This document shows, piece by piece, positions 33,095 through 49,561 of a DNA stretch of 64,000 nucleotides (its first letter is position 1; the number at the start of each line of letters is the position of its first letter). Position numbers and translations under genes: made by a program. The DNA lies in assembly GCA_044227555.1 (NCBI GenBank), contig JBGAWQ010000014.1, positions 12,206-76,205 on the forward strand, given 5' to 3'. This stretch comes from Saprospiraceae bacterium (GTDB taxonomy: Bacteria > Bacteroidota > Bacteroidia > Chitinophagales > Saprospiraceae). The notes below the pieces were generated by a model. That model saw only the letters and a list, made by a program, of their open reading frames with translations. It was not told the origin of the DNA and did no database searches.

Positions 33095-33142
33095 TGAGGG
33101 GTGAGGGGTGAGTGGTGAGGGGTGAGTGGTCAATGGTGAGTA
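33094..33142 (+). repeat. Seven tandem heptamers GTGAGGG/GTGAGTG
   Basis: gtgaggg gtgaggg gtgagtg gtgaggg gtgagtg gtcaatg gtgagta, starting at the last base of the ribA stop codon. Confidence 0.9.
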
Positions 33143-37802: not shown

Positions 37803-38021
37803 GTCATTTTGAGTTTATTAACCAAAAGACGACTAAATCGAACGTTTAGTTGGTAACAATTGGCCTGTTTCAGGACACTATGTACACGAAAGGGTGTTAT
37901 GTAGTTGGTGATGTGGCCTGTAAAAGCAGATAAATTTAATTAGGATCATTCAATCATGAACTTTTTGGCACCCTGTGTTGTACCTTTTGTGTCTGAAATG
38001 GATTAAATCCCGGCAACCGCT

Positions 38022-38888
38022 ATGCGTCAATTAAAAATTGCTAACCGTATCACCGCCCGTGAGAGCCTCGCATTGGAGAAATACCTGCAGGATATCGGGA
38101 AGATTGAGATGCTCACTCCGGAGGAGGAGTCAAGGCTGGCTGCCCTGTCCCGGAATGGAGACCAGGCTGCGTTGGAACGGTTGACGGAAGCCAACCTCCG
38201 TTTTGTGGTATCCGTAGCTAAGCAATATCAAAACCAGGGATTATCTCTGGGGGATCTCATCAATGAAGGTAATGTAGGCCTGATGAAGGCTGCTCGGCGA
38301 TTTGACGAGACCAAGGGGTTTAAGTTTATCTCCTATGCCGTATGGTGGATTCGCCAGAGTATACTCCAGGCAATCATTGAATACTCCAGGATCGTCCGGA
38401 TGCCGCACAACAAGTCCACCTCTTATAATCGGCTCAACGAGGCGTATGTTTCTTTTGTCCAGGAATTTGAAAGGGATCCGACGCACGAGGAACTGGCTGA
38501 TCTGCTCAATGTTCCGATCCGGGATGTGATCAACAATATGCCGGGAAACAACAGGCATATTTCGTTTGACGCGCCGGTCTCCAGTGAGGAAGACAGTTTT
38601 ACGCTGTTGGACATGATTGAGACAGATGAAGAGATGCAGCCTGACCTGAAGCTCATGGAGGAATCCATGCGGCTCGATATCATGTACAGTCTCAATTCAC
38701 TGGCGCCGCGGGAAGCTGAGGTGTTGGCCTTTTATTTCGGACTCAAGGGGGACAAGCCCTTGACCCTGGATGAAATCGGCGAGCAACTGGATCTCACGCG
38801 CGAACGGGTTCGACAGATCAAGGAGCGGGCGATTCGCCGGTTGCGGAAGTCTATGAAGCGCAACAATTCCATGCGATCTTATATGTAA
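38022..38888 (+). CDS. rpoD: RNA polymerase primary-like sigma-70 factor (Bacteroidota short sigma-A type)
   Basis: Region 2 (EANLRFVVSVAKQY..GLSLGDLINEGNVGLMKAARRFD..FISYAVWWIRQ) and region 4 (TLDEIGEQLDLTRERVRQIKERAIRRLR). Confidence 0.9.
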   Translation: MRQLKIANRITARESLALEKYLQDIGKIEMLTPEEESRLAALSRNGDQAALERLTEANLRFVVSVAKQYQNQGLSLGDLINEGNVGLMKAARRFDETKGFKFISYAVWWIRQSILQAIIEYSRIVRMPHNKSTSYNRLNEAYVSFVQEFERDPTHEELADLLNVPIRDVINNMPGNNRHISFDAPVSSEEDSFTLLDMIETDEEMQPDLKLMEESMRLDIMYSLNSLAPREAEVLAFYFGLKGDKPLTLDEIGEQLDLTRERVRQIKERAIRRLRKSMKRNNSMRSYM

Positions 38889-38982
38889 TCTTCTCTTTGG
38901 GATTAATCCTTTTTCATTCATTTGCGTTTATTAACCATTTCCAACGGTCTTCGGGAGGCGTAAGCCATTTCTGTTTACTAAT

Positions 38983-39627
38983 TTGAACCCGCAAATGATA
39001 GAGGATATACTCAGGGCTGTATTAGGGATGCCTCCGGGCACGTCCCGGATCAACAAGGATCTGGAGATCATGCGGCAGCTCACCAAGCCGTTGGCAGACC
39101 AGCTCATCCCCTGGGAGAAGGAGAAGGAGCTGGAGATTATGGCCCTTAAAATGGAATCAAAATTCCATAAACGGGGTATGGACCGTATCTCGGTGGGAAC
39201 ATTACAGTCCATCTATTTCGAGCCTATGGTCACCTTTGCTTATATGGATTATGTCAAGGGCGCACGTGAGGCTCTGCTGTATTGCAGAACCCGGAGCCTG
39301 GAATTGGTATACCGGATTAAGAGGAAGGATATTGATGTTTACCTCAATGGGACCCAGGTGGCTATCATTGATCAACAGAATGTCATGCACGGTCTCCGTT
39401 CAAGGAGTATTATAGGGCAGGTCAAGCCGTATTCTCCTGATTTGCTTTCCATCATCATCTGGGACCGGGAGGTCGGGCATATGTTTGATCCGCTGCGTCC
39501 GCATAGTGATGTCCAGCGTGCATTTTTTCTGATGACCCCGTTAGCGGAAGAAGAAGAGCGCATCTTTTTTGCTTTTGGATTTTATGAGTTGATCACCAGG
39601 TTGCTGACCGTCAAAAAACGTAAATAA
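38983..39627 (+). CDS. Hypothetical protein
   Basis: ORF only, with no motif I recognise. Start is either the TTG at 38983 or the ATG at 38995. Confidence 0.4.
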   Translation: MNPQMIEDILRAVLGMPPGTSRINKDLEIMRQLTKPLADQLIPWEKEKELEIMALKMESKFHKRGMDRISVGTLQSIYFEPMVTFAYMDYVKGAREALLYCRTRSLELVYRIKRKDIDVYLNGTQVAIIDQQNVMHGLRSRSIIGQVKPYSPDLLSIIIWDREVGHMFDPLRPHSDVQRAFFLMTPLAEEEERIFFAFGFYELITRLLTVKKRK

Positions 39628-39670
39628 CCAATTCTGGTTCGTACATTTACCCATTCGATAGTCTTACGAT

Positions 39671-40108
39671 ATGAATGTATTTGATTCCATACGCGTCGTT
39701 GTCTACAGGTTCCATGAAAAGGGACTGGAAATCTTTCTGGTCAATAGTGGCCTGGAAGAGGAAAACTGGCGTATCCCTTTTTCAGATATTGCCAAGTACC
39801 CCGTCAATGAGTTGACGATCGGGGATCATTTTATCTCGCTGGAGGGCGATGTCAATCCGGATGGTTCAACCAGCATCATCTGTGCTATCGAAGGCGACTG
39901 GCACGACATTCCATCTATCCGCAAGTTGATCAAGGAAGATATACGGTTGGTTTCAACCAAAATCGATAAGTACATCATGCCTGAACTGGAGAAAGGCACC
40001 TACTTTGCCATCAAGGAAGCTTTCAAGAAAGTCATGCCTAATGAATACAAGGCACTGCATGAATTGAAGGACATCCTTCTGCACCGAAACATGCTTAAAA
40101 ACATATAA
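39671..40108 (+). CDS. Hypothetical protein (weak NUDIX-fold-like N-terminus without a Nudix box)
   Basis: IRVVVYRFHEKGLEIFLVN resembles the first strands of Nudix proteins, but no GX5EX7REUXEEXGU box is present. Confidence 0.4.
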   Translation: MNVFDSIRVVVYRFHEKGLEIFLVNSGLEEENWRIPFSDIAKYPVNELTIGDHFISLEGDVNPDGSTSIICAIEGDWHDIPSIRKLIKEDIRLVSTKIDKYIMPELEKGTYFAIKEAFKKVMPNEYKALHELKDILLHRNMLKNI

Positions 40109-40113
40109 AAAAA

Positions 40114-40139
40114 GGGTGGCCATCAGCCACCCTTTTTTT
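40114..40139. terminator. Bidirectional intrinsic terminator between convergent genes
   Basis: gggtggc-catca-gccaccc flanked by an A run and a 7-T run. Confidence 0.85.
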
Positions 40140-40140
40140 A

Positions 40141-40776
40141 TTACTTGTTGGGCTGCGGAGTGATCCGCAGATAAGGCTTGATATGTTTCGCGCCTTTCGG
40201 AAACTTAGCCGGGATATCTGTGTCCGGTACAGAAGGCAGGATGACGACATCTTCTCCATCCACCCAGTTGGCCGGTGTAGCCACGCTGTGATAGGCGGTG
40301 AGTTGTAAGGAGTCAATCACGCGAAGGATCTCTGTAAAGTTTCTTCCGGTGCTGGCCGGATACGTCAGGGTCAGTTTAACCTTCTTGTCTGGGCCGATGA
40401 TGAATACGCTGCGAACCGTTGTTTTTTCGGTAGCATTCGGATGGATCATATCATACAGCACAGCCACTTTTTTGTCTTCGTCCGCGATGATCGGGAAGTC
40501 AACCGTGGTGTGCTGGGTTTCGTTGATGTCCTTGATCCATCGGCCGTGGGATTCCGCACCATCCACACTGAGGGCGAGAACCTTGACGTTGCGTTTGGCA
40601 AATTCATTTTTCAGTTTTGCGGTCATTCCAAGTTCCGTCGTGCAGACAGGAGTGAAATCCGCGGGATGGGAAAAGAGCAAGCCCCAGGCGTCGCCGAGGT
40701 ACTGATAGAAATCAATAGGGCCTTCGCTGGTATCAGCTTGAAAATTGGGGGCGATATCGCCGAGTCGGATTGACAT
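40141..40776 (-). CDS. 1-Cys peroxiredoxin (Prx6 type)
   Basis: WGLLFSHPADFTPVCTTEL peroxidatic-Cys motif, 211 aa. Confidence 0.92.
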   Translation of the reverse strand: MSIRLGDIAPNFQADTSEGPIDFYQYLGDAWGLLFSHPADFTPVCTTELGMTAKLKNEFAKRNVKVLALSVDGAESHGRWIKDINETQHTTVDFPIIADEDKKVAVLYDMIHPNATEKTTVRSVFIIGPDKKVKLTLTYPASTGRNFTEILRVIDSLQLTAYHSVATPANWVDGEDVVILPSVPDTDIPAKFPKGAKHIKPYLRITPQPNK

Positions 40777-40803
40777 AATGGTTAAGTTTATGGATTAGAG
40801 TTA

Positions 40804-40873
40804 GTCGAGAGTCGTGAGTCGAGAGTCGTGAGTCGAGAGTCGTGAGTCGTGAGTCGTGAGTCGTGAGTCGTGA
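40804..40873. repeat. Ten perfect tandem heptamers: (GTCGAGA GTCGTGA)x3 + (GTCGTGA)x4
   Basis: Read directly. It lies 28-97 nt upstream of the peroxiredoxin start codon and downstream of the E1-like gene. Confidence 0.95.
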
Positions 40874-40964
40874 GTGGGTTATGGTGCAGCAAAATACGGT
40901 TTACTTGGTTGAAGGCTATTGAAACTTTTAGTCTTAATAAACTTAATAAGCCTTATAAGCCGTT

Positions 40965-42137
40965 TCAGTATTTGGGTATGCTTGGGTCGATTTCTTTGGC
41001 CCAGGCGATGATACCGCCTTCGAGGTTGTACAGATCGGTCAATCCTGCTTCCGTGCGGAGGCGTTGGATGACATCTCTTGATCTGATGCCGGATTTACAC
41101 AGAAAGACAACGTCTTTGTTTCGTGATATGCGGTCGACCTGTTGCATGATCTCTCCTTTGGGGATCAGGGTGCCTCCGATATTGGCGATGGCATATTCAT
41201 GAGGTTCGCGGACATCGATGAGTTGGAAGTCTTTTCCGTTTCGGATCCATTCGTGCAGGGTGGAAACGCTGATCTGATCTTCATGATTTGATGCATGTTT
41301 TGCAGGCAGGCCGCAGAAAAATTCGTAATCAATGAGTGATGTTTGTGTAGGATGTGTTCCGGTCAATGGATTGTCAGGATCCTTGCTGAGTTTGAAGATT
41401 CTGGTTGAAAAGGAAGCGGCGTCAAACTGAAACAGCCGGCCTGCGAGAGGGTCTCCTACTCCGGAAATGACTTTAATCACTTCATTGGCCTGGAGACTGC
41501 CCAGGATGCCCGGGAGGACACCGATCACTCCGCCTTCGGCGCAACTTGGCACCAGACCCGGCGGAGGGGGTGTGGGAAACAAGTCCCGGTAATTGGGTCC
41601 GCGGGAGCCATCGGGATATTGGTAATTGAAAACGCTGGCTTGTCCTTCGAAGCGGAAGATAGAGGCGAATACGTTGACTTTGCCGGCCAGAACACAGGCA
41701 TCGTTGACGAGGTAGCGCGTTTGAAAATTATCAGTACCATCGGCAACGACATCAAAGCGTGAAATGATATCCAGGGCGTTGGAGCTATCTAATTTGACCG
41801 GAAAGACTTCGAAGTTGACATGGGGGTTGAGGGCTTGAAGTCTTTCACGGGCGGCATCCACTTTAGGTCTCCCCACATCCCTGGTGGTAAACAGGACCTG
41901 GCGTTGGAGGTTGCTGGTGTCCACCACGTCAAAGTCAACGATGCCGATCGTTCCGACTCCTGCGGCCGTCAGATAGAGTAATACCGGGGCACCCAGGCCA
42001 CCGGTGCCGATCACCAGTACACGGGCTTGTTTAAGTTTTTTCTGTCCTTCCAGATTGAATTCCGGCAGGATCAGGTGTCGGCTGTAGCGTTCGAGTTCTT
42101 CCTTACTCAGGATGACTTCTTCCAATGAGTTTTGCAT
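40965..42137 (-). CDS. ThiF/MoeB-type E1-like adenylyltransferase with C-terminal rhodanese domain (MoeZ/MoeBR-like)
   Basis: RYSRHLILPEF, VIGTGGLGAP and the C-terminal rhodanese loop FLCKSGIRS. ATG at 42137 chosen. Confidence 0.88.
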   Translation of the reverse strand: MQNSLEEVILSKEELERYSRHLILPEFNLEGQKKLKQARVLVIGTGGLGAPVLLYLTAAGVGTIGIVDFDVVDTSNLQRQVLFTTRDVGRPKVDAARERLQALNPHVNFEVFPVKLDSSNALDIISRFDVVADGTDNFQTRYLVNDACVLAGKVNVFASIFRFEGQASVFNYQYPDGSRGPNYRDLFPTPPPPGLVPSCAEGGVIGVLPGILGSLQANEVIKVISGVGDPLAGRLFQFDAASFSTRIFKLSKDPDNPLTGTHPTQTSLIDYEFFCGLPAKHASNHEDQISVSTLHEWIRNGKDFQLIDVREPHEYAIANIGGTLIPKGEIMQQVDRISRNKDVVFLCKSGIRSRDVIQRLRTEAGLTDLYNLEGGIIAWAKEIDPSIPKY

Positions 42138-42150
42138 TTGACCTATGAAT

Positions 42151-42429
42151 TTACAGTGAACCGCCGGCAATAGCGGGAATTATGCTCAGTTCGTCCCCGG
42201 CATGGAGTGGTGTGGCCAATCCTTCTTTTTCACGGATATCGTTTTCGCCGAGATAGATCCGAACGTGTTTTCGGAGCAGCTCTGTCTCGTCATAGATGTA
42301 CGGAACCAGCCCGGGATGGATAGTGGTCAGTGATCTGACGGCACCAGCTACATCAGCAGCCTGGACCTGAACTTTGGATTGTTCGCCGGCAAAGCGACGG
42401 AGTGGGGTCGGAATGAAAATGGTAATCAT
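42151..42429 (-). CDS. MoaD/ThiS-family ubiquitin-like sulfur-carrier protein (CysO-like), C-terminus GG followed by Ser-Leu
   Basis: 92 aa ending ..GDELSIIPAIAGGSL. Located between the JAMM and E1-like genes. Confidence 0.8.
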   Translation of the reverse strand: MITIFIPTPLRRFAGEQSKVQVQAADVAGAVRSLTTIHPGLVPYIYDETELLRKHVRIYLGENDIREKEGLATPLHAGDELSIIPAIAGGSL

Positions 42430-42489
42430 AGCGTATTGTTTTTATTAGGTTAATTTATGAAGAGCTTATTGTGTCCAATCATCAATAGC

Positions 42490-42550
42490 CCATTATGCCT
42501 CTTTAGCCTCTTTTGCCCCTTTCCCCTAAAGGGGGAATAGGTGATTTGCC
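42490..42550 (+). repeat. Partial copy of the dispersed repeat / G-A-rich word family inside the operon spacer
   Basis: tagcctcttttgcccctttCCCCtaaaGGGGgaatagg, with hairpin CCCC-TAAA-GGGG at 42524-42535. Confidence 0.55.
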
Positions 42551-42626
42551 AAGGTTATTTATGGTGCTTTTCATGTAGTGACTCATTATTCTGTTCTTTG
42601 CGTTCCATTAGTACTTAACCATCGAA

Positions 42627-43064
42627 TTAGTTGCTTATTCTTGAATCTTTAGTTACTGTAAATATCTCTTCGGCCAATTTTCCATCCAGGAGTCGGAAAC
42701 TTCGCGTTACTGTCATATGACCGCCCTGGATCGAATGGATGAAATAGGAAAAGAAAGGTTGCGCGTATTCGAGGTCATGGACCGAGGGAATGGCGGGATG
42801 GTCCGGATGCGAGTGATAGATGCCGAGGAGTTGTTTGTCGGATTGCAGGGCCAATTTTTCCGCACGCATGTAGTCCAGGGGATCGATGACAAATCGTCTC
42901 CGCAAATTTTCGGTCGAGCGGTTTTCTACTTCATAATGAGAAGTGATATGGCGATGGCCGATCGCTTGGGTGCCCAGCAGAAATCCGCAGGCTTCATGCG
43001 GGTAAGCGGATTCGAGATGTTTTTGGATCTGACGAAGGGTCTGATGATGAATGGAGGTGCTCAT
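42627..43064 (-). CDS. JAMM/MPN+ metalloprotease (Mec+/QbsD-like)
   Basis: YPHEACGFLLG and HSHPDHPAIPSVHD fit the E..HxHx7Sx2D JAMM motif. ATGA overlap with the upstream cysteine synthase stop. Confidence 0.88.
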   Translation of the reverse strand: MSTSIHHQTLRQIQKHLESAYPHEACGFLLGTQAIGHRHITSHYEVENRSTENLRRRFVIDPLDYMRAEKLALQSDKQLLGIYHSHPDHPAIPSVHDLEYAQPFFSYFIHSIQGGHMTVTRSFRLLDGKLAEEIFTVTKDSRISN

Positions 43065-43987
43065 ATGCCGAATATTTCTTTTCGTACTTCATGATATCTG
43101 TCGAGTGTGTCTGCGAGTGTAGTAACGATGTTGCCCCGGTCTAATGTTGAGGCTATGGTATGTGCACCGATCAGATTGGCAGCGCCGGAGGGTGAAATGT
43201 ATATGCCCTCATGGGCTGCTATGGCGCGGATCATATCTGGTACTTCGGCAGCGTCGATGGTCAGGTTCTGATCGGCCAGTGAGGGGTCATAGATAGCCGG
43301 AATATGATGGGCGGTCTCAAGATGTTTCCAGCCTTCGAGGGGGTGGAAGGGATGATCTGGTTGTAGCGAGATCGTGAGGACATTGCCGAGTTCCTTCAAT
43401 CGTCTTGACGTACCGGTAAACGTTCCGGTGGTGCCCAGGCCTGCAACAAAATGAGTCACTTGTCCATTCGTTTGAGACCAGATTTCTTCAGCGGTAGTGA
43501 AGTAGTGGGCTTGCCAGTTAGCTTCATTTGAATATTGGTCCGCGAAAAAATATCGGTCGGGATGGGTCTTAAATAAATCCTTAGCCACGTCCTGCGCACC
43601 ATCTGTGCCTTCGAGGGGAGAGGTGAGGATGAGTTCCGCGCCAAGGGATTTCAATAAACGTTGGCGTTCTGATGAGGCATTGGAGGGCAGACAGATGACG
43701 GGGCGCCATCCTTTGGTTTGGAGGAGGGTTGCATAGGCTATTGCTGTATTGCCGCTGGAAGCATCCAGTAGTTGATTGCCTGCATGTAGTCTTCCGGATT
43801 GGATAGCTCTGGAGATGATGGCATAAGCTGCCCTGGCTTTCACACTGCCGCCGGGTTGTTGCCATTCGGCCTTGGCCCAGATTTTTACGCGGTCTGTGCT
43901 CAGGCTCTCGATCAGCAATAATGGGGTGTTGCCTACCTCAGGAAGGGTTGCTGTCGTTTTAGGTCTGTGCAGTGTTTGTGTTGGCAT
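43061..43987 (-). CDS. PLP-dependent cysteine synthase (CysM-like, probably carrier-thiocarboxylate dependent)
   Basis: GNTPLLLIESL, PGGSVKARAAY (PLP lysine), SSGNTAIAYA and GLGTTGTFTG motifs. The ATG at 43987 is preferred to the TTG at 44029, which lies inside a terminator hairpin. Confidence 0.85.
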   Translation of the reverse strand: MPTQTLHRPKTTATLPEVGNTPLLLIESLSTDRVKIWAKAEWQQPGGSVKARAAYAIISRAIQSGRLHAGNQLLDASSGNTAIAYATLLQTKGWRPVICLPSNASSERQRLLKSLGAELILTSPLEGTDGAQDVAKDLFKTHPDRYFFADQYSNEANWQAHYFTTAEEIWSQTNGQVTHFVAGLGTTGTFTGTSRRLKELGNVLTISLQPDHPFHPLEGWKHLETAHHIPAIYDPSLADQNLTIDAAEVPDMIRAIAAHEGIYISPSGAANLIGAHTIASTLDRGNIVTTLADTLDRYHEVRKEIFGI

Positions 43988-44014
43988 TGGATTCGTGATT
44001 AGATGGATAAAATG

Positions 44015-44050
44015 AAAAAAGCCTTTCAATCCGGATGAACTGAAAGGCTT
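44015..44050 (-). terminator. Intrinsic terminator inside the operon leader (attenuator)
   Basis: Minus strand: AAGCCUUUCA-12 nt loop-UGAAAGGCUU followed by UUUUUU, ending 27 nt before the cysteine synthase ATG. No minus-strand gene ends upstream of it. Confidence 0.65.
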
Positions 44051-44089
44051 TGTCCTATATGGTTTGGTATACTATAGTACAATCTCAGG

Positions 44090-44158
44090 TCAACCCGGGG
44101 GTTGAGCACAACAACAGCAACAGCAGTTGGTATAGATTGTACAAGTCATATTTTTCAT
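44090..44158 (-). CDS. Cys-rich leader peptide, 22 aa: MKNMTCTIYTNCCCCCCAQPPG
   Basis: ATG..TGA ORF read by hand, with six consecutive Cys codons TGC TGT TGC TGT TGT TGT at 44125-44108. It sits between a promoter-like motif and the leader terminator. Confidence 0.6.
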   Translation of the reverse strand: MKNMTCTIYTNCCCCCCAQPPG

Positions 44159-44167
44159 AAATCCTGA

Positions 44168-44199
44168 CAAATATATGGGTGTTTATTCCGAAATGTCAA
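44168..44199 (-). promoter_or_regulatory. Candidate promoter of the leader and cysteine operon
   Basis: Minus strand: TTGACA-N18-TATATTTG (TAnnTTTG match), ending 9 nt before the leader ATG. Confidence 0.45.
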
Positions 44200-44258
44200 G
44201 CACAAGGTTCAAATTTGTGCCCTGACAATCTTTATAACAACCGAATCGACCAAAAGTT

Positions 44259-45188
44259 ATGCCAATCTCAGCAACCCATTTCAACTTATCGGGGCAGACC
44301 GGATTTTACCGGGGCAAGGTGAGGGATGTATATTACGTAGATGACCTGATGGTCGCTGTGGCTACAGATCGTATTTCCGCATTCGATCATATCCTGCCAC
44401 GCCCGATACCTTATAAGGGCCAGGTGCTCAATCAGCTTGCCGGATTTTTTCTGGATGCCACTAAGGATATCGTGCCTAACTGGAAGAAGTCGATGCCGCA
44501 TCCTAATGTAACGATCGGGGTGTTGTGTGAACCGATTCGTATCGAGATGGTGATTCGCGGATATCTTGCCGGTCATGCCCTCCGGGAGTATAAATCAGGT
44601 AAGCGGTTGTTGTGTGGCGAACCTATGTTGGATGGCATGGCAGACAATGAAGCTTTTCCTCAGCCCATCATTACTCCGGCGACTAAAGCCGATACCGGTC
44701 ATGATGTGGATATTTCGGGTGAAGAAATTGTGAAGCAGGGGTTATTGCCTGCAGCGGTGTATGAGGAGATGGCCAGAATCACCAGGGCTTTGTTTCAGCG
44801 AGGCACGGAGATGGCCGCGCGTCGTGGTTTGATCCTGGTGGATACCAAGTATGAGTTTGGATGGTATCGGGATGAGCTATATATCATTGATGAAGTGCAT
44901 ACCCCGGACAGCAGCCGGTACTGGTATGCCGATCGTTATGCCCAGAATCAGTTAGAGGGCAAGCCTCAGGAGCAATTATCGAAGGAGTTTGTACGCGAGT
45001 GGTTGATGTCAAAAGGATTTCAGGGGCTTGAGGGGCAGCAGATGCCGGTGATGGATGATGCCTTTGTCGAACTGGTCAGCAATCGGTACATCCATCTTTA
45101 TGAACAGATGACCGGCAAGGATTTTGAAAAAGCTCCTGATGATGAGGACACCGTGGTCCAGGCGATTGAAAAATCGTTGAGACGGTAG
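44259..45188 (+). CDS. purC: Phosphoribosylaminoimidazole-succinocarboxamide (SAICAR) synthase
   Basis: GKVRDVY, TDRISAFD and LILVDTKYEFG motifs. Confidence 0.95.
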   Translation: MPISATHFNLSGQTGFYRGKVRDVYYVDDLMVAVATDRISAFDHILPRPIPYKGQVLNQLAGFFLDATKDIVPNWKKSMPHPNVTIGVLCEPIRIEMVIRGYLAGHALREYKSGKRLLCGEPMLDGMADNEAFPQPIITPATKADTGHDVDISGEEIVKQGLLPAAVYEEMARITRALFQRGTEMAARRGLILVDTKYEFGWYRDELYIIDEVHTPDSSRYWYADRYAQNQLEGKPQEQLSKEFVREWLMSKGFQGLEGQQMPVMDDAFVELVSNRYIHLYEQMTGKDFEKAPDDEDTVVQAIEKSLRR

Positions 45189-45209
45189 GGCGTTAAATCA
45201 TAGCGTGCA

Positions 45210-46424
45210 TTAGCGCTCTAACAATTTTCCCAACGTACTGATTACGTAATCGATCTCTTCGGCGGTATTGTAAGCCGCAATGCCCATTCGGGTTACGCCT
45301 CCCTGGCCCATGAGGTCCATGACTTCTACTGCACGGATGGCATAGAAATGTCCATCCCAGGCGCAGATCCCATGTTCGGAGAGGTATTGGCAAATGGCTT
45401 CGGGTCGATGGTTTTCAACCGTGAAGGAGATCGTTGGGGCGCGTTGGGTTTCTTTCAATGGAGGGCCGTAGATATCTACGCCATCGAGGTCCCGGAGTCC
45501 GAGATATAGTTGTTGCGCCAGGCTTCGTTCGTACTTCTGGATGTGGGCCATGGCTGTGGTGATTTTGTCACGTTGGGTCTGACCTTCACCCATGGAGGCG
45601 ATAAAATCTACGGCGGCAGCTACGCCTGCCAGTGCGGCGTGGTGGAGAGTACCGCGTTCGATTTTATAAGGAGCAGTTTGGGTTTGGACCCTAAGGCGGT
45701 CGGTATCGAGGCGATCCAGTGCTCCGGGTCTTGAATACAGGATGCCTACATGAGGGCCGTAGAATTTGTACGCTGAGCACAGCAGGAAGTCGCAGTCGAT
45801 CTCGCGGACATCTGTGAGGAGGTGGGGTACGTAATGTACTCCATCCACCACGAGCAAGGCACCGACTTCATAGGCTAATTGTCGGACGCGATCGATTTCA
45901 TTGACGGTACCGAATATATTCGATGCCAGGCCGATGGCGATGACGCGGGTTTTTTCGCTGATTTTCTTTTCCAGGTCGGCGTAGTTGAGGCTGCCGTCTT
46001 CTTCGAGGAGTACTTCGCGAACGACGATGCCATGGCGACGTTGCTGGAGCCAGGGGCCGCGGTTGGCTTCGTGATCCAGTTGGGTGATGAGGATTTCATC
46101 GCCGGGTTGGAGGGAGCGGGCGATGGCGTTGGCCAGGACGAAATTGAGGCTTGTCATATTGGCTCCGAAGGAGATGGTTTCCGGGCCTTCCGCGCCCAGC
46201 AGGGCAGCGACCTGTGTGCGGGCGTGGTGGATGAGTTGATCAGTTTCCCGGGAGGTGACAAACTGGCCATGTGTATTGGCGTTGCTATGGCTGTATACAT
46301 TCACCATCGCGTCGATGACCGATTGGGGGACCTGGGTGCCAGCCGGGCCATCGAGGTGGAGGATGGGGCGGCCGTTGACGATTCTTTTCAGGGAAGGGAA
46401 CTGGCTGCGAATGGCATCATTCAT
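45210..46424 (-). CDS. Class-V aminotransferase fold, cysteine desulfurase-like PLP enzyme
   Basis: LDGPAGTQVP.., HEANRGPW and DFLLCSAYKFYGPHVG (PLP lysine in SAYK). Confidence 0.75.
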   Translation of the reverse strand: MNDAIRSQFPSLKRIVNGRPILHLDGPAGTQVPQSVIDAMVNVYSHSNANTHGQFVTSRETDQLIHHARTQVAALLGAEGPETISFGANMTSLNFVLANAIARSLQPGDEILITQLDHEANRGPWLQQRRHGIVVREVLLEEDGSLNYADLEKKISEKTRVIAIGLASNIFGTVNEIDRVRQLAYEVGALLVVDGVHYVPHLLTDVREIDCDFLLCSAYKFYGPHVGILYSRPGALDRLDTDRLRVQTQTAPYKIERGTLHHAALAGVAAAVDFIASMGEGQTQRDKITTAMAHIQKYERSLAQQLYLGLRDLDGVDIYGPPLKETQRAPTISFTVENHRPEAICQYLSEHGICAWDGHFYAIRAVEVMDLMGQGGVTRMGIAAYNTAEEIDYVISTLGKLLER

Positions 46425-46464
46425 TGAACAGGAGGGTTGGTTTGTGGGGTGAAATTAGGGAAAA

Positions 46465-46637
46465 GGGGGGAAGGGAGCAAAGGAGCAAGGGAGCAAGGGG
46501 CTAAGGGGCAAAATACGTTGGGTGGAATCCTAAAATTGTTTTTTGCCTTTTTGACCAGTGCGTCGCCGGTCTTCTACTTCTAGTTACCTACTTCCCTTCG
46601 CCTTTAGCCCCTTGCTCCTTTAGCCCCTTCGCCCCTG
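46465..46637. repeat. Imperfect inverted repeat built from G/A-rich ~8-nt words (GGAGCAAG, GGGCTAAG, GGGCAAAA)
   Basis: Left arm 46465-46513, right arm 46592-46637. The perfect 15-bp core is GGAGCAAGGGGCTAA (46490-46504) versus TTAGCCCCTTGCTCC (46604-46618). Confidence 0.85.
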
Positions 46638-46764
46638 CTTTTCATGTGGGCAGGAAACTTTACCTTTGGGTCCCTTGTTAGGAGGGATATTCGATCATTA
46701 AAACTATGGGGCTGATCCTCCTTCGCCAAGGCTTCGGCGGACTAACCCTATAAGTGTCAAAGCG

Positions 46765-46793
46765 TTGACAATGATTTTTGTTGTCAATATTTG
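46765..46793 (+). promoter_or_regulatory. Candidate ssrA promoter with embedded palindrome
   Basis: TTGACA-N17-TATTTG ends 15 nt before the tmRNA 5' end. The inverted repeat TTGACAA/TTGTCAA lies at 46765-46771 / 46781-46787. Confidence 0.35.
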
Positions 46794-46807
46794 TTCATTG
46801 AATCTAA

Positions 46808-47172
46808 GGGGCTGACAGGAATCGACAGTAAATGTATCGTGTCAGTAAGCATGCCGGGGGATGATGGTTTACCCCGTTATCAAATAGTCATCGACCAATA
46901 ATTGGCGAAACACGTTTCGCATTGGCTGCCTAATTCCAGGAATTAGTATGCCTTTATGCTTCCGGTTTGATCTCTGCTACAAAACCGTGCGGCATTCAGA
47001 AATGCAGAATAAGCTGAGGGGATGTCCTGACCCAACGCCGACAACTTCAGGGAACCGGGTGAGGCCGCGTTGTTACAGTACCTTGTCTCATCCTAAATCA
47101 GATCTGTAACTAAGCATGTAGAAAGCTGATGTGAGCTTTATCTGGACGGGGGTTCAATTCCCCCCAGCTCCA
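46808..47172 (+). ncRNA. ssrA: tmRNA (SsrA), tag reading frame GETRFALAA-stop
   Basis: 5' GGGGCTGACAGGAATCGACAG. Tag ORF ggc gaa aca cgt ttc gca ttg gct gcc taa (46904-46933). 3' end GGACGGGGGTTCAATTCCCCCCAGCTCCA with a tRNA-Ala-like acceptor and T-arm. Confidence 0.92.
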
Positions 47173-47175
47173 CAA

Positions 47176-47240
47176 TCCTGATTGGGTGTGGTATGGGGTG
47201 ATGGAATGATGGGGCGAGGGAGTGATAGGGTGAGAGTAAG
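47176..47240 (+). repeat. Degenerate GGTGA/GGGTGA-type short tandem words
   Basis: gggtgtggtatggggtgatggaatgatggggcgagggagtgatagggtgagagtaag, similar in flavour to 33094-33142. Confidence 0.6.
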
Positions 47241-47242
47241 TA

Positions 47243-47473
47243 TCATTCCCGAATCATTATCCGGCGATCCCGGAAAATCACCTCATATCCGGGTCTTAGC
47301 TTATTTCGCTTACGCAATTCTACTGCCCCATTGACGGTCACTTCGCCGTCTTCGATGCAAATGTTGGCCTCGCCGCCAGATTCCACCAGGTTCAATAGCT
47401 TGAGGAGTTTGTTGAGTTCGATGTATTCCTTCCCTTTTAGATGGAAGGTGTCGTGAGGTGCAGGATCACTCAT
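47243..47473 (-). CDS. S4-domain RNA-binding protein (YbcJ-like)
   Basis: IELNKLLKLLNLVESGGEANICIEDGEVTVNGAVELRKRNKLRPGYEV. Confidence 0.8.
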   Translation of the reverse strand: MSDPAPHDTFHLKGKEYIELNKLLKLLNLVESGGEANICIEDGEVTVNGAVELRKRNKLRPGYEVIFRDRRIMIRE

Positions 47474-47608
47474 GTTTTATGGATTGTTTGTCTTCGTCGA
47501 TTTTGGTTCGGTAAATGAGGATAACTCAATCTCGAAGATAGGGGAGAGGAAACATTTGTATGCCATGCCATTTGCCCGGAGCCAAAAGGAAAAAGTTAAC
47601 TTTACCTG

Positions 47609-49561
47609 GTGCCAAAGAAAGCCAGGAAATCCACACCAAAAGATTCTCCGCAACTGGTAAAAAAGGCAAGGGTGCCATCCACTCATACTGGAGGATGGAT
47701 CAGTGCTCTGCTGTTTGCCATTGCCGCCGGAGCATGCTCTTATGTATTGTCCCCGGTACTTGCTTATGCTGATCAGCAGGATACGTTGTCGAAAGGACTC
47801 TTGATTCTTTTGTGCGCGATAGTTGGATTCATTGGAGAAACTTCTTTTTTTAGAAGATATATCAGTTCCATTTCTGTTTGGATTCTGGCGCTGACCATCT
47901 TGCAACTCCTGGCCAATCTGAGCCTGTTGTATAGTTGGTTCGAATCAAATCCTGTTTTGCTATTCTTCACCAGAGATTTGACGATACCTATTGGAGTAGC
48001 CTGGTTTTTTATTCTTCGACACGGCACTACGGCTACAACTCTGCCCATAGCGCCCAATAGTTATAGGTTCAAAGAGGTATTCAATTCCATGGCTACAAGA
48101 GTAGTTGCCTTGATTGCGCTGGCTGTAGCAACAGGTCTTTTCTTTTACCGGCTTGGCTACTTTGATATCTGGGAAGATGAAAACCTGGTCATCAATGCGG
48201 CGGTAGGGGTGATGCAGCAAGGTCTGGCGTACTTCAAAGAAGGATATGACCGCGCTGCGCTGCATACTTTGATTTGTGCCGGTGTATTTGAGATGTTTGG
48301 TGTCTCAGAATATACCGCACGGATACCTTCGGCGATTTTCGGACTGGTGTTTGTAGCCGGCAGTTTGTATGTATTTGCAAGATGGTATGGCATCGCCTGG
48401 TTGGCCATTTTGATTCCACTGGTCTGCCTCATGAATGACCGCTTCCTGATTTTGTTCCGGTACATGCGGATGTACGCTTTGCTCATTCCTCTTTTTCTGG
48501 GCGGTGTGTACCTGATCCATCGTACACTCACTAAATGGCAAGAGGATCAATTTTCCCTTACTGCAGGATCGTCCCGAAAGCAATTGATCTATTTGTTATT
48601 GGGGTCAATGTTGTGCCTTCCATTGTTGGCGCACGTGCATAAATTGTCGATGGTCTTACTTCCGGTTTTTGCAAGCTATCTGGTGTATATGACCATTCAG
48701 CACCCGACTCGAAAACAATGGACCTTCCTTGGGATATGCGCAGCCGCAGGGGTTTTGCTTCTTCTCCTGACGTTTGTAGTTGAACTGGGGCCTTTGAAAA
48801 TGTTCAGGCAGGCGGCTAGCCGTATACTCTCTCCGCACGATCCCAAGCCAGCCTATTTTCAGTATCTGTTTGAGAATGGCTTGCCGCAATACAACACTAT
48901 CATGTTCTTGATTGCAGGCCTGGGTCTTCTGGGTTCAAAGGTGATGAGATCATTGAAGTCCTTGCTGTTGTTGCAATATCTGCTCATCATCATTCCATTG
49001 GTGCTCATGGTTTACCTCGCTGATGACCAGGGCAGGGATTACCGGTATATTGCCCATATTGTTCCTTTCGTGGTGAGTGTGTTACTGTTGACGGGGTATG
49101 CTATTGGGAAGACCTTGTGGCCCCGAAAAGGGGTTTGGGTACCGGTGTCCATATTCTTTATTTCAACGCTGCAGTTGTGGCACGATGCGGATCGGGTGTA
49201 TATCAAGCATCCCTGGGCGCCTGGTTATTCTGAAGTATATAGTACGCTCAAGGCAAATTTCCATCCTGACGATGCTTTATTTGTTCAAAACGTAAAAACA
49301 TTTTATCTGGATCCTGAGCAACTTGCCGGATCCCATTTTCATAAAGTACCCAAAAAGCGATTGTATACGCTGGATCAGTTTATAGCTGATGTCCGATCAG
49401 AAAAGCATGGATGGGTGATGTGGGAACTCCACAAATCGTATCAATGGCAGCCTGAAATCCTGGATTATATTTATGCGCGGTTTAAGCCCTATCATAGCCA
49501 GAACCTCGATGACCTTGGCGTGGAATTATTTTATTTTGACGAAACCATGCTGGGCCAATAA
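47609..49561 (+). CDS. Polytopic membrane glycosyltransferase, GT-C fold (GT39/ArnT/PMT-like)
   Basis: More than 12 hydrophobic helices. FFYRLGYFDIWEDENLVINAA resembles the first-loop DE motif of GT39/ArnT enzymes. Start uncertain: GTG at 47609 (Lys-rich tail like the next gene) or ATG at 48089. Confidence 0.6.
   Translation: MPKKARKSTPKDSPQLVKKARVPSTHTGGWISALLFAIAAGACSYVLSPVLAYADQQDTLSKGLLILLCAIVGFIGETSFFRRYISSISVWILALTILQLLANLSLLYSWFESNPVLLFFTRDLTIPIGVAWFFILRHGTTATTLPIAPNSYRFKEVFNSMATRVVALIALAVATGLFFYRLGYFDIWEDENLVINAAVGVMQQGLAYFKEGYDRAALHTLICAGVFEMFGVSEYTARIPSAIFGLVFVAGSLYVFARWYGIAWLAILIPLVCLMNDRFLILFRYMRMYALLIPLFLGGVYLIHRTLTKWQEDQFSLTAGSSRKQLIYLLLGSMLCLPLLAHVHKLSMVLLPVFASYLVYMTIQHPTRKQWTFLGICAAAGVLLLLLTFVVELGPLKMFRQAASRILSPHDPKPAYFQYLFENGLPQYNTIMFLIAGLGLLGSKVMRSLKSLLLLQYLLIIIPLVLMVYLADDQGRDYRYIAHIVPFVVSVLLLTGYAIGKTLWPRKGVWVPVSIFFISTLQLWHDADRVYIKHPWAPGYSEVYSTLKANFHPDDALFVQNVKTFYLDPEQLAGSHFHKVPKKRLYTLDQFIADVRSEKHGWVMWELHKSYQWQPEILDYIYARFKPYHSQNLDDLGVELFYFDETMLGQ

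What the first reader, a model, noticed from the sequence alone, without database searches (positions are those of the whole stretch)
40965..43987. Ubiquitin-like sulfur-carrier cysteine pathway (CysM / JAMM / CysO-like / E1-rhodanese) with the carrier encoded as a GG-SL pro-form
Four co-directional minus-strand genes are seen. The first is a PLP cysteine synthase (GNTPLL, PGGSVKARAAY). Its stop overlaps (ATGA) the start of a JAMM/MPN+ protease (EACG ... HSHPDHPAIPSVHD). Next comes a 92-aa MoaD/ThiS-like beta-grasp protein ending ..PAIAGG-SL. After a 13-nt gap there is a ThiF/MoeB E1-like enzyme (GTGGLGAP) fused to a rhodanese domain (CKSGIRS). Established knowledge: this is the gene set of the Mycobacterium tuberculosis CysO-thiocarboxylate cysteine pathway (CysM, Mec+, CysO, MoeZ). 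A carrier with extra residues after GG that a JAMM protease removes is known from Pseudomonas QbsE/QbsD. Inference: here the JAMM enzyme may both mature the GG-SL pro-carrier and release Cys from a carrier-Cys adduct. The context points the same way. A 1-Cys peroxiredoxin lies directly downstream, a cysteine-desulfurase-like class-V enzyme lies 1.2 kb upstream (45210-46424), and the Cys-codon leader is reported separately. Together these suggest an oxidative-stress-robust, cysteine-regulated module. I cannot tell whether it has been studied in this phylum.
Basis: partly seen in the sequence, partly recalled or inferred. Interest (0 to 1): 0.65.

Follow-up and report, generated by a model that had tools for sequence, protein, structure and literature searches.

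The report
Sulfur-carrier cysteine synthesis gene cluster
An uncultured sludge bacterium (Saprospiraceae) carries a four-gene operon that most likely makes cysteine using sulfur carried on a small ubiquitin-like protein; the pathway has been proven only in tuberculosis bacteria, but this gene set was catalogued across phyla in 2006, so the find is sound but not new in kind.

Summary
Four co-directional minus-strand genes encode:
- a CysM-like PLP synthase (43987-43061);
- a JAMM/MPN+ protease (43064-42627, ATGA overlap with the synthase);
- a 92-aa beta-grasp carrier ending AIAGG-SL (42429-42151);
- a ThiF-rhodanese E1 of MoeZR type (42137-40965).

The order cysM-JAMM-carrier-E1 recurs in Saprospiraceae, Acidobacteriota, Chloroflexota, Rhodothermales and other groups. 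Of 40 synthase homologs at 45% identity or more with enough flanking DNA, 37 are linked to partner genes. Of 16 more distant homologs, 1 is.

The pro-form reading has strong comparative support. In 113 of the 120 best carrier homologs, residues follow an invariant IIPAIAGG, with more than 80 different tails. In nine related genomes the carrier is translated in frame with the E1. Cleavage after GG is therefore obligatory.

A conserved leader peptide (MKNMTCTIYTNCCCCCCAQPPG) with a terminator and antiterminator ties expression to cysteine supply.

Caveats:
- The synthase is nearer E. coli CysM than M. tuberculosis CysM, so O-phosphoserine use is undetermined.
- The sulfur source is unknown.
- Co-transcription is unproven.

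This operon type is row 4c of Table 1 in Iyer, Burroughs and Aravind 2006. Verdict: new member of a known kind.

The parts
44170..44199 (-). Promoter-like site upstream of the leader: TTGACA, 18 nt, TATATT. The second element reads TATATTTG, which fits the Bacteroidota -7 motif TAnnTTTG.
   Evidence: 11 of 12 consensus matches; sequence. The Bacteroidota consensus is from my own knowledge. Function was not tested.
44090..44158 (-). Leader ORF MKNMTCTIYTNCCCCCCAQPPG-stop. It has 7 Cys in 22 codons, six of them consecutive at 44125-44108.
   Evidence: It is conserved, with the ending ...CCCCAQPPG, in all 10 Saprospiraceae loci that hold the upstream DNA.
44086..44098 (-). 5' arm of the predicted antiterminator (CCGGGTTGACCTG). 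The leader stop codon lies inside it.
   Evidence: It pairs with 44042-44031. Partial-transcript folds give -16 to -21 kcal/mol in all 11 sequences. 96% of cells are paired, but there is only one compensatory change, so covariation is uninformative.
44018..44051 (-). Intrinsic terminator hairpin (15 pairs) followed by TTTTTTCATTTT, ending about 20 nt before the cysM ATG. Its 5' arm and loop (44042-44031) form the 3' arm of the antiterminator.
   Evidence: It is almost invariant in the relatives.
43061..43987 (-). CysM-like PLP-dependent cysteine synthase, 308 aa. The PLP lysine lies in GGSVKARAA. The clade motif is QPDHPFHPLEGWKH, with Lys221 where E. coli CysM has Arg210.
   Evidence: Pfam PALP 1.5e-55. 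TIGR01138 cysM is the best NCBIfam hit at 267 bits, below its 394-bit cut-off. PDB: E. coli and Salmonella CysM 6.9e-56, M. tuberculosis CysM 9e-41.
42627..43064 (-). JAMM/MPN+ zinc metalloprotease, 145 aa, translationally coupled to cysM through an ATGA overlap.
   Evidence: Prok-JAB 6.2e-21. Best PDB match is 2kcq at 8.7e-22, with the HSHPDHPA.PS..D motif aligned. The overlap is kept in 12 of 12 Saprospiraceae copies.
42430..42626 (-). Non-conserved 197-nt spacer between the JAMM and carrier genes. No terminator is predicted in it.
   Evidence: The spacer is 54-197 nt long in relatives, where it is filled with differing 7-nt tandem repeats. There is no Rfam match. A strain-variant breakpoint lies at 42539.
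42151..42429 (-). CysO-like beta-grasp sulfur carrier, 92 aa. GG is residues 89-90. The two-residue tail Ser-Leu is encoded at 42159-42154.
   Evidence: ThiS 8.3e-11. PDB 4n6e_B 8e-11 and 3dwg_C (CysO) 1.5e-10. AlphaFold2 pLDDT 91, with residues 89-92 disordered. Foldseek TM 0.87 and 0.84 to the CysO structures.
40965..42137 (-). E1-like adenylyltransferase fused to a rhodanese domain (MoeZR type), 390 aa. ThiF domain about 42086-41373; rhodanese domain about 41264-40995, with the CKSGIRS loop.
   Evidence: ThiF 2.2e-79 and Rhodanese 3.8e-11. PRK07878 MoeZ 478 bits, below its 647-bit cut-off. Uba4 and MoeB are the top PDB hits. NYRD is present and both CxxC motifs are absent (criterion from PMC3227635).
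40803..40875 (.). Heptamer tandem repeat (AGTCGTG) x10 within the 188-nt spacer between the E1 and peroxiredoxin genes.
   Evidence: No terminator is found in this spacer in the window or in 8 relatives.
40141..40776 (-). 1-Cys (Prx6-type) peroxiredoxin, 211 aa, with a single Cys in PVCTTE. It is probably the last gene of the transcription unit.
   Evidence: AhpC-TSA 5e-30 and 1-cysPrx_C 1.3e-7. It lies downstream of the E1 in 8 of 8 Saprospiraceae loci that reach that far.
40105..40141 (-). Strong bidirectional intrinsic terminator after the peroxiredoxin gene. It is the first strong terminator downstream of the attenuator.
   Evidence: 17 pairs; -29.8 kcal/mol.

Best explanation
This is a cysteine-regulated operon for cysteine synthesis in which the sulfur is delivered on a protein.

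Proposed cycle:
1. The 92-aa beta-grasp carrier is made as an inactive precursor, ...AIAGG-Ser-Leu.
2. The JAMM zinc protease cuts after Gly90 and exposes the GG carboxylate.
3. The ThiF domain of the MoeZR-type E1 adenylates that carboxylate.
4. The persulfide on the fused rhodanese domain converts it to a thiocarboxylate.
5. The CysM-like PLP enzyme forms an aminoacrylate from an activated serine, either O-phosphoserine or O-acetylserine (not decided here).
6. The carrier thiocarboxylate attacks the aminoacrylate. After an S-to-N acyl shift the product is carrier-GG-Cys.
7. The same JAMM activity, hydrolysis of the GG|X peptide bond, releases cysteine and regenerates the carrier.

Regulation: expression is set by a ribosome-mediated attenuator. 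With ample Cys-tRNA the ribosome reaches the leader stop codon. That codon sits inside the antiterminator arm, so the terminator forms. When the ribosome stalls in the six-Cys run, the antiterminator is free to form and transcription reads into cysM-JAMM-carrier-E1, and probably into the peroxiredoxin gene.

Shown here: the gene identities, motifs and fold, the conserved linkage, the unconstrained tails, the carrier-E1 fusions, and the leader, terminator and antiterminator complementarity.

Inferred: every chemical step, which enzyme removes the tail, the serine derivative used, the sulfur donor, and co-transcription.
For: Gene identities:
- Domains and motifs are confirmed.
- The carrier's best sequence and structure matches are the CysO proteins 4n6e_B and 3dwg_C. 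The model has pLDDT 91 with a disordered GGSL end.
- The JAMM motif is complete.
- The E1 is of MoeZR type: NYRD present, CxxC motifs absent (PMC3227635).

Linkage:
- The order cysM-JAMM-carrier-E1 recurs in at least seven lineages.
- 37 of 40 synthase homologs at 45% identity or more are linked to a partner gene, against 1 of 16 below 45%.
- The ATGA coupling occurs in 12 of 12 Saprospiraceae copies. The carrier-E1 gap is 9-14 nt in 11 of 12.

Tail cleavage:
- 113 of 120 homologs carry residues after an invariant IIPAIAGG. There are more than 80 different tails, 1 to about 27 residues long.
- Nine loci encode the carrier in frame with the E1. Pfam confirms ThiS+ThiF+Rhodanese in single polypeptides.
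- Such proteins cannot be adenylated at GG without cleavage.
- The first tail residue is highly variable and includes Cys. This fits a protease that also accepts GG-Cys.

Cysteine link:
- The poly-Cys leader and terminator are conserved in all Saprospiraceae loci.
- Independent poly-Cys leaders with terminators precede this cysM clade in Pyrinomonadaceae, Rhodothermales and Chloroflexota.

Precedent:
- The M. tuberculosis pathway is summarised in PMC3227635.
- Tail removal by JAMM (QbsE/QbsD, CxnE/CxnF) is described in PMC5925218.
- Cleavage of the MoaD-MoaE fusion MoaX is reported in PMC4326299 (title and abstract seen).
Against: - There is no biochemical or transcript evidence. The only run that covers the locus behaves as DNA, and the true metatranscriptomes show almost nothing here.
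- The synthase is not in the M. tuberculosis CysM clade by similarity (143 against 193 bits). It falls below every NCBIfam equivalog cut-off.
- Three loci (L038, L045, L052) have carriers with tails or a TusA fusion but no JAMM gene within 6 kb. The adjacent JAMM is therefore not the only possible processing enzyme.
- A 197-nt non-conserved spacer splits the cluster, and an internal promoter is not excluded.
- The carrier, E1 and JAMM also resemble the archaeal SAMP1, UbaA and desampylase families, which do protein conjugation as well.
- The antiterminator has only one compensatory change.
Confidence: 0.8

Rival explanations
1. The carrier, E1 and JAMM form a ubiquitin-like protein-conjugation and deconjugation system, like archaeal SAMP/UbaA/HvJAMM1 or Thermus TtuB/TtuC. 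The JAMM enzyme would process the precursor and remove conjugates. The synthase would be a neighbour or a target.
For: The best NCBIfam names are SAMP1 for the carrier (50 bits), desampylase for the JAMM (52 bits) and UbaA among the E1 hits (288 bits). SAMP1 structures match the model nearly as well as CysO does. Precursor processing is typical of ubiquitin-like modifiers.
Against: All three NCBIfam scores fall below their family cut-offs. The JAMM gene is translationally coupled to a cysteine synthase in every Saprospiraceae copy. The synthase clade co-occurs with the carrier genes. A poly-Cys attenuator controls the unit. No E2-like or other conjugation gene lies nearby. A secondary conjugation role alongside sulfur transfer is not excluded.
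Confidence: 0.06
2. The carrier system feeds sulfur into another product, such as molybdopterin, thiamin, 2-thiouridine or a thio-metabolite. The synthase only supplies cysteine as the upstream sulfur donor. This is the coupling first suggested for this operon type in 2006.
For: [quoted passage not shown] M. tuberculosis MoeZR serves both CysO and the MoaD proteins (PMC3227635). A cysteine-desulfurase-like gene is a conserved neighbour in Saprospiraceae.
Against: No MoaE, ThiG, TtuA/NcsA or tailoring-enzyme genes occur in the cluster, in the window neighbourhood or in the relatives. The carrier is closest to CysO, not to MoaD, ThiS or TtuB. A JAMM enzyme is not needed in the classical Moco and thiamin pathways (PMC1779556).
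Confidence: 0.07
3. The synthase is an ordinary sulfide- or thiosulfate-using O-acetylserine sulfhydrylase B. It works without the carrier, and the clustering reflects only shared regulation of sulfur genes.
For: Its best characterised relatives are E. coli and Salmonella CysM (6.9e-56, about 193 bits), ahead of M. tuberculosis CysM. The basic residue of the CysM entrance loop is kept as Lys221.
Against: It scores 267 bits against a 394-bit cut-off for the cysM equivalog. It forms a clade with its own motif, HGLEGxKH, and that clade's boundary coincides with carrier linkage: 37 of 40 against 1 of 16. The ATGA coupling to the JAMM gene argues for matched production of the two proteins.
Confidence: 0.07

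Closest known systems
M. tuberculosis Mec+ / CysO / CysM with MoeZR (Rv1334-Rv1336 plus Rv3206c). The pathway was reconstituted by Burns et al. 2005 and is summarised in PMC3227635.
   Same: The same four protein families are present. The carrier's best sequence and structure matches are CysO. The JAMM motif is complete. The E1 has the MoeZR hallmarks, NYRD and no CxxC. The proposed chemistry is identical.
   Different: - The E1 is encoded inside the cluster here, whereas it is unlinked in M. tuberculosis (own knowledge).
- The gene order is cysM-JAMM-carrier-E1 rather than mec-cysO-cysM.
- The carrier has a two-residue tail, whereas M. tuberculosis CysO ends at GG (alignment).
- The synthase is not the nearest relative of M. 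tuberculosis CysM, so O-phosphoserine use is open.
- Control is by a terminator-type poly-Cys attenuator.
- There are no ClpS or helical-protein genes.
Operon type 4c of Iyer, Burroughs and Aravind 2006 (PMC1779556, Table 1): ThiS/MoaD, E1-rhodanese, JAB and cysteine synthase. It is listed for P. aeruginosa, R. palustris, Solibacter, Rubrobacter, Salinibacter and Chloroflexus.
   Same: The gene content is exactly the same, including the rhodanese fusion. I file the window cluster under this class.
   Different: The class was described only by comparative genomics and labelled 'uncharacterized'. Saprospiraceae were not included. As far as I could find in that paper, it does not describe the tails after GG, the carrier-E1 in-frame fusions or the poly-Cys attenuators.
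QbsE / QbsD / QbsC (thioquinolobactin, Pseudomonas fluorescens) and CxnE / CxnF (chuangxinmycin), as described in PMC5925218.
   Same: The carrier is made with extra residues after GG: CF in QbsE and a decapeptide in CxnE. A cluster-encoded JAMM protease is proposed or shown to remove them before adenylation by an E1-rhodanese enzyme.
   Different: These are secondary-metabolite pathways. They have no PLP cysteine synthase, and the sulfur ends in a thioacid or thiol natural product.
HcyS / HcyD / HcyF / MetY methionine pathway of Wolinella succinogenes (Krishnamoorthy and Begley 2011; from my own knowledge, paper not retrievable here).
   Same: As I recall it, the carrier has one extra residue after GG, and one JAMM enzyme both trims the precursor and releases the amino acid from the carrier adduct. 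That is the dual role proposed here.
   Different: The product is homocysteine, made by an O-acetylhomoserine sulfhydrylase rather than a CysM-type enzyme. The genes sit among sulfate-assimilation genes.
Mycobacterial poly-Cys upstream ORF attenuators (bioRxiv 10.1101/834739; predicted earlier in PMC1262725).
   Same: A short upstream ORF with consecutive Cys codons senses cysteine supply and controls cysteine-metabolism operons.
   Different: In mycobacteria the ORFs are leaderless, the tested case acts by sequestering the ribosome-binding site, and no conserved terminator was found. Here a canonical hairpin plus U-tract terminator and a competing antiterminator are present.

Membership tests
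Protein-thiocarboxylate (CysO-type) cysteine biosynthesis system | Small beta-grasp ThiS/MoaD-family carrier with a C-terminal Gly-Gly | tested here: met
   ThiS 8.3e-11. AlphaFold2 gives a beta-grasp at pLDDT 91. TM is 0.87 and 0.84 to CysO structures. GG lies at residues 89-90 and aligns with the C-terminus of CysO, but two more residues follow it.
Protein-thiocarboxylate (CysO-type) cysteine biosynthesis system | JAMM/MPN+ metalloprotease with the motif E...H-S/T-H-X7-S-X2-D | tested here: met
   HEACG and HSHPDHPAIPSVHD are present. The motif definition is from PMC5925218. Direct comparison with Mec+ was not possible, because no Mec+ sequence or structure was on hand.
Protein-thiocarboxylate (CysO-type) cysteine biosynthesis system | MoeZR-type E1: ThiF domain with NYRD in place of the first CxxC and no second CxxC, fused to a rhodanese domain with an active-site Cys | tested here: met
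   GPNYRDLFP and DPDNPLTG are present, with no CxxC. The rhodanese loop is CKSGIRS. The criterion is from PMC3227635. The score to the MoeZ equivalog model is 478 bits, below its 647-bit cut-off.
Protein-thiocarboxylate (CysO-type) cysteine biosynthesis system | Synthase belongs to the clade of M. tuberculosis CysM (O-phosphoserine sulfhydrylase) | tested here: not met
   By similarity it is nearer E. coli and Salmonella CysM (about 193 bits) than M. tuberculosis CysM (143 bits), and it is equidistant from M. tuberculosis CysK1 (145 bits). A relative from Dormibacterota gives the same picture. No full phylogeny was made, because M. tuberculosis sequences could not be retrieved.
Protein-thiocarboxylate (CysO-type) cysteine biosynthesis system | O-phosphoserine as acceptor, carrier thiocarboxylate as sulfur donor, and carrier-Cys adduct hydrolysed by the JAMM enzyme | not testable with these tools
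   These are biochemical properties. The only hint is an invariant Lys-His in the entrance loop (HGLEGxKH), where E. coli CysM has Arg210-Arg211.
Operon type 4c of Iyer et al. 2006 (ThiS/MoaD + E1-rhodanese + JAB + cysteine synthase) | All four genes lie in one co-directional neighbourhood that is conserved across genomes | tested here: met
   32 of 40 informative loci carry all three partner genes next to the synthase.
Pro-form sulfur carriers matured by a JAMM protease (QbsE/QbsD type) | Residues encoded after the GG motif | tested here: met
   Ser-Leu follows GG. The same sequence occurs on independent contigs (P0001). 113 of 120 homologs have tails.
Pro-form sulfur carriers matured by a JAMM protease (QbsE/QbsD type) | The tail is dispensable and removed, that is, unconstrained in evolution and absent from the active form | tested here: inconclusive
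   Comparative support is strong: more than 80 different tails after an invariant IIPAIAGG, in-frame fusions to the E1 in nine loci, and a disordered tail in the model. Cleavage itself, and the enzyme responsible, were not shown. Three tail-bearing loci lack a nearby JAMM gene.
Leader-peptide transcription attenuator | Short ORF enriched in codons of the end-product amino acid, an intrinsic terminator before the first gene, and a mutually exclusive antiterminator overlapping the leader's end | tested here: met
   The leader has 7 Cys in 22 codons. The terminator has 15 pairs followed by a T-run. The antiterminator folds at -16 to -21 kcal/mol in 11 of 11 sequences, with the stop codon inside its 5' arm. 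Covariation is too sparse to add support. No functional test was made.

The most novel reading that the evidence does not exclude
The 1-Cys peroxiredoxin that always follows the E1 gene in Saprospiraceae may be a functional partner of the carrier rather than a bystander. No terminator lies between the two genes. As with eukaryotic Urm1 and the peroxiredoxin Ahp1, the carrier thiocarboxylate might reduce, persulfidate or become conjugated to the peroxidatic cysteine, which has no resolving partner. That would couple peroxide exposure directly to the sulfur-carrier cycle. The JAMM enzyme would then also act as a deconjugase.

A more modest but better supported novelty is this. Outside the actinobacteria, precursor processing (GG-X tails, up to whole carrier-E1 polyproteins) is the rule for this pathway, making it a bacterial counterpart of ubiquitin-precursor maturation.
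Probability: 0.07. Interest if true: 0.65.

Novelty: new member of a known kind. Interest (0 to 1): 0.3.

Why it matters
Protein-thiocarboxylate cysteine synthesis has been demonstrated only in mycobacteria. [quoted passage not shown]

This window and its relatives show a well-defined, cysteine-regulated version in abundant wastewater Saprospiraceae and in several other phyla. The synthase belongs to a different clade from M. tuberculosis CysM, and the carriers need proteolytic activation. Testing it would show three things:
- whether carrier-dependent cysteine synthesis is a widespread alternative to sulfide-dependent synthesis;
- which serine ester this clade uses;
- whether one JAMM enzyme both licenses and recycles the carrier.

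The conceptual gain is limited. The operon type, the tail-trimming role of JAMM enzymes and poly-Cys leaders all have precedents.

Tried and rejected
- **Transcript evidence for co-transcription.** The one 'RNA-Seq' run holding the locus (X11) covers both strands and the spacers evenly at about 30x, so it behaves as DNA. Two true sludge metatranscriptomes show only tmRNA and a few fragments. The test is inconclusive.
- **Residue-level comparison with M. tuberculosis CysM (Arg220).** No M. tuberculosis sequence could be obtained. PDB alignments are printed only for the top five hits, and M. tuberculosis CysM ranked far lower with both queries tried. The key papers (for example PMC2647513) are not held, and a text search for Arg220 found nothing.
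- **Rfam.** No family matches the leader or either spacer, even at E up to 1.
- **The GC-rich palindrome-like stretch in the 197-nt spacer as a repeated mobile element.** It is a single copy in the window and is not conserved in relatives. Rejected.
- **Strict co-occurrence of tails with an adjacent JAMM gene.** Not found. Six JAMM-linked carriers end at GG, and three tail-bearing carriers have no JAMM gene within 6 kb.
- **Covariation support for the antiterminator.** There is only one compensatory change, and 99 of 500 shuffles reach the observed score.
- **Other sulfur-assimilation genes (cysE, serB/serC, sulfate reduction) nearby.** None was found among the 30 neighbouring proteins scanned.
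- **Literature on heptamer repeats in Saprospiraceae.** Nothing found.
- **The HcyS/HcyD paper.** Not found.

Full report
**Observation**

- The synthase runs from the ATG at 43987 to 43061 (308 aa). A longer ORF from the TTG at 44029 is an artefact, because that codon lies inside a terminator hairpin. Conservation among relatives begins at the ATG.
- The JAMM gene (43064-42627) starts with an ATG that overlaps the synthase stop as ATGA.
- A 197-nt spacer follows.
- The 92-aa carrier gene (42429-42151) ends ...IIPAIAGG-SL-stop.
- After 13 nt comes the E1 gene (42137-40965).
- Pfam gives PALP 1.5e-55, Prok-JAB 6.2e-21, ThiS 8.3e-11, ThiF 2.2e-79 and Rhodanese 3.8e-11.

**Organism and setting**

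The closest genomes are uncultured Saprospiraceae (Bacteroidota), near Candidatus Opimibacter. The stretch is held almost intact in many activated-sludge metagenomes. The neighbours are housekeeping genes: PNPase, a sigma-70 factor, purC, tmRNA and polysaccharide genes. No other sulfur-assimilation genes are nearby.

**The parts**

- Carrier. Its best solved relatives by sequence are 4n6e_B (the CysO chain of the Amycolatopsis BexX/CysO complex, 8e-11) and M. tuberculosis CysO (3dwg_C, 1.5e-10). Both align end to end, with their C-terminal GG on residues 89-90. An AlphaFold2 model built on 46 homologs has pLDDT 91 and a beta-grasp topology, with residues 89-92 disordered. Foldseek ranks the two CysO structures first (TM 0.87 and 0.84), closely followed by SAMP1.
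- JAMM protein. It has the full E...HSH-X7-S-X2-D motif and matches the MPN protein 2kcq at 8.7e-22.
- E1. It matches Uba4, MoeB and ThiF. It reads GPNYRDLFP where MoeB has its first CxxC, and DPDNPLTG where MoeB has the second. Voss et al. use exactly this signature to separate MoeZR, the enzyme that loads CysO, from MoeBR (PMC3227635). The rhodanese loop CKSGIRS keeps the catalytic Cys.
- Synthase. It is CysM-like: TIGR01138 is the best model at 267 bits, against a 394-bit cut-off. Its nearest solved relatives are E. coli and Salmonella CysM (6.9e-56). M. tuberculosis CysM scores 9e-41, no better than M. tuberculosis CysK1.

**Conservation**

A scan of one genome per species returned 80 loci.
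- The order cysM-JAMM-carrier-E1 is found in all Saprospiraceae loci long enough to show it. It also occurs in Acidobacteriota, Chloroflexota, Rhodothermales, Balneolales, Gemmatimonadales, Woeseiaceae and others.
- Of 40 loci whose synthase is at least 45% identical to the window's and that hold 3 kb or more downstream, 37 carry at least one partner gene and 32 carry all three. Of 16 loci below 45% identity, one does.
- The linked clade shares the loop motif QPDxPxHGLEGxKH. Its Lys (Lys221 here) sits where E. coli CysM has Arg210.
- Within Saprospiraceae the ATGA overlap is kept in 12 of 12 copies. The carrier-E1 gap is 9-14 nt in 11 of 12. The JAMM-carrier spacer varies from 54 to 197 nt and is not conserved.

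**The pro-form**

Among the 120 best carrier homologs, 113 have residues after an invariant IIPAIAGG.
- The tails run from one to about 27 residues, in more than 80 different versions.
- The first tail residue is variable: S, T, N, K, I, L, A, M, F, Q, R, V, C, G and H are all seen.
- Only one of the first 92 hits ends at GG.
- In nine related loci the carrier reading frame runs without a stop into the E1 (L015, L016, L017, L019, L021, L025, L027, L028, L059). Pfam confirms ThiS+ThiF+Rhodanese in single polypeptides.
- One locus has a ThiS-TusA fusion.

Adenylation needs a free GG carboxylate, so these carriers must be cut after GG. A tail under no sequence constraint is what a discarded propeptide looks like.

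Assigning the cut to the adjacent JAMM enzyme is an inference. It rests on precedent (QbsE/QbsD and CxnE/CxnF, PMC5925218) and on linkage. The inference is weakened a little by three tail-bearing loci with no JAMM gene within 6 kb.

A protease that tolerates almost any residue after GG would also hydrolyse carrier-GG-Cys. To my knowledge this has already been shown for HcyD in the Wolinella methionine pathway. I could not retrieve that paper.

**Regulation**

Upstream of cysM lies a promoter-like site (44199-44170). It is followed by a leader ORF, MKNMTCTIYTNCCCCCCAQPPG (44158-44090). Then comes a 15-pair hairpin with a T-run (44051-44018) that ends about 20 nt before the cysM ATG.
- The leader and hairpin are nearly invariant in the 10 Saprospiraceae loci that include them.
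- The segment CCGGGTTGA(A/C)CTG contains the leader stop codon. It is complementary to the 5' arm and loop of the terminator.
- Transcripts ending before the 3' arm fold into this antiterminator at -16 to -21 kcal/mol in all 11 sequences.
- A ribosome that reaches the stop codon would cover the antiterminator arm and allow termination. A ribosome stalled in the Cys run would leave it free.
- Pairing is 96% conserved, but there is only one compensatory change, so covariation adds nothing.
- Poly-Cys leaders followed by strong terminators also precede this cysM clade in Pyrinomonadaceae, Rhodothermales and two Chloroflexota.
- Poly-Cys upstream ORFs are known in mycobacteria, where no terminator is involved.

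This is independent evidence that the product of the operon is cysteine.

**Transcription unit**

No terminator is predicted between the attenuator and the strong hairpin after the peroxiredoxin gene (40141-40105). This holds in the window and in eight relatives. The peroxiredoxin, which has a single Cys, follows the E1 in 8 of 8 informative Saprospiraceae loci, but not in other phyla. Direct RNA evidence could not be obtained.

**Mechanism and open points**

The most likely mechanism is the M. tuberculosis cycle preceded by a maturation step, as set out under the best explanation. Three points stay open.
- The serine ester. The synthase is not in the M. tuberculosis CysM clade.
- The sulfur donor to the rhodanese domain. 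This is also unknown in M. tuberculosis (PMC3227635). The neighbouring TIGR01976 cysteine-desulfurase-like gene is conserved nearby in Saprospiraceae, but it lies beyond the opposite-strand purC. Using cysteine to make cysteine would be circular.
- A possible second role for the carrier, in conjugation or in other thiolations.

**Comparison with what is known, and novelty**

The gene set is row 4c of Table 1 in Iyer, Burroughs and Aravind 2006. [quoted passage not shown] It is listed for proteobacteria, Solibacter, Rubrobacter, Salinibacter and Chloroflexus (PMC1779556).

The chemistry is that of the mycobacterial pathway, and tail trimming by JAMM enzymes has precedents. The window therefore holds a new member of a known kind.

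I did not find the following described:
- how general the tails are;
- the carrier-E1 polyproteins in the cysM-linked clade;
- the terminator-type poly-Cys attenuators in several phyla.

I rate interest at 0.3.

Noticed in passing
window 40803-40875, 33094-33130, 46474-46512, 47193-47234; L003-L012 spacers of the same cluster: Intergenic spacers in this lineage are filled with tandem arrays of 7-8-nt units. The window has (AGTCGTG)x10 between the E1 and peroxiredoxin genes. At the same two spacers, relatives carry quite different units, for example (TCAGCTA)x15 in L004 and AAATCCA or TTTTCAC runs in others. The position is kept while the unit sequence is not. The arrays lie inside a probable transcription unit. 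They resemble cyanobacterial STRR heptamers (own knowledge). I found no literature on them.
   Followed up: partly
L015:7572-9023, L016:7449-8870, L017, L019:7425-8939, L021, L025, L027, L028, L059: In nine genomes of Acidobacteriota, Balneolales, Woeseiaceae and Gemmatimonadales, the CysO-like carrier is encoded in frame with the E1-rhodanese enzyme as a single ThiS+ThiF+Rhodanese polypeptide. Each lies next to cysM and a JAMM gene. A polyprotein of this kind must be cut after GG. I did not find this architecture in the 2006 survey of such operons.
   Followed up: partly
L038:4488-5006: A carrier is fused after its GG motif to a TusA sulfurtransferase domain. It sits in a carrier-E1-cysM cluster that has no JAMM gene within 6 kb.
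   Followed up: partly
window 44158-44018; L015, L021, L023, L050, L055 upstream of cysM: Poly-Cys leader ORFs followed by strong intrinsic terminators precede this cysM clade in Saprospiraceae. Independently derived versions occur in Pyrinomonadaceae, Rhodothermales and Chloroflexota. These are classical terminator-type cysteine attenuators, unlike the mycobacterial poly-Cys ORFs, which lack terminators. No Rfam family covers them.
   Followed up: partly
window 41600-41575 (NYRD) compared with L015-L017, L021, L028: Within one operon type the E1 switches between two forms. Saprospiraceae and Balneolales have the MoeZR form (NYRD, no CxxC, so presumably no structural zinc). Acidobacteriota have the MoeBR form (CYRC ... 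CPxC).
   Followed up: no
window 46808-47175 (+): A tmRNA gene (Rfam 134 bits) lies here. It is by far the most abundant transcript of this 10-kb stretch in two sludge metatranscriptomes (depth 75-130, against 0-5 elsewhere).
   Followed up: no
window 38000-48000, run X11: A public run labelled 'METAGENOMIC RNA-Seq' covers both strands, the spacers and the opposite-strand genes evenly at about 30x. It therefore behaves as DNA and should not be read as expression data.
   Followed up: yes
window 1297-2435: About 240-nt tandem repeats (73-76% identical) lie inside a 2029-aa ORF (30-6119). This is probably a repeated-domain surface protein.
   Followed up: no
window 42539: A metagenome contig matches the window up to 42539, inside the JAMM-carrier spacer, and then diverges for more than 250 nt. 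This indicates strain-level rearrangement or an indel within that spacer.
   Followed up: no
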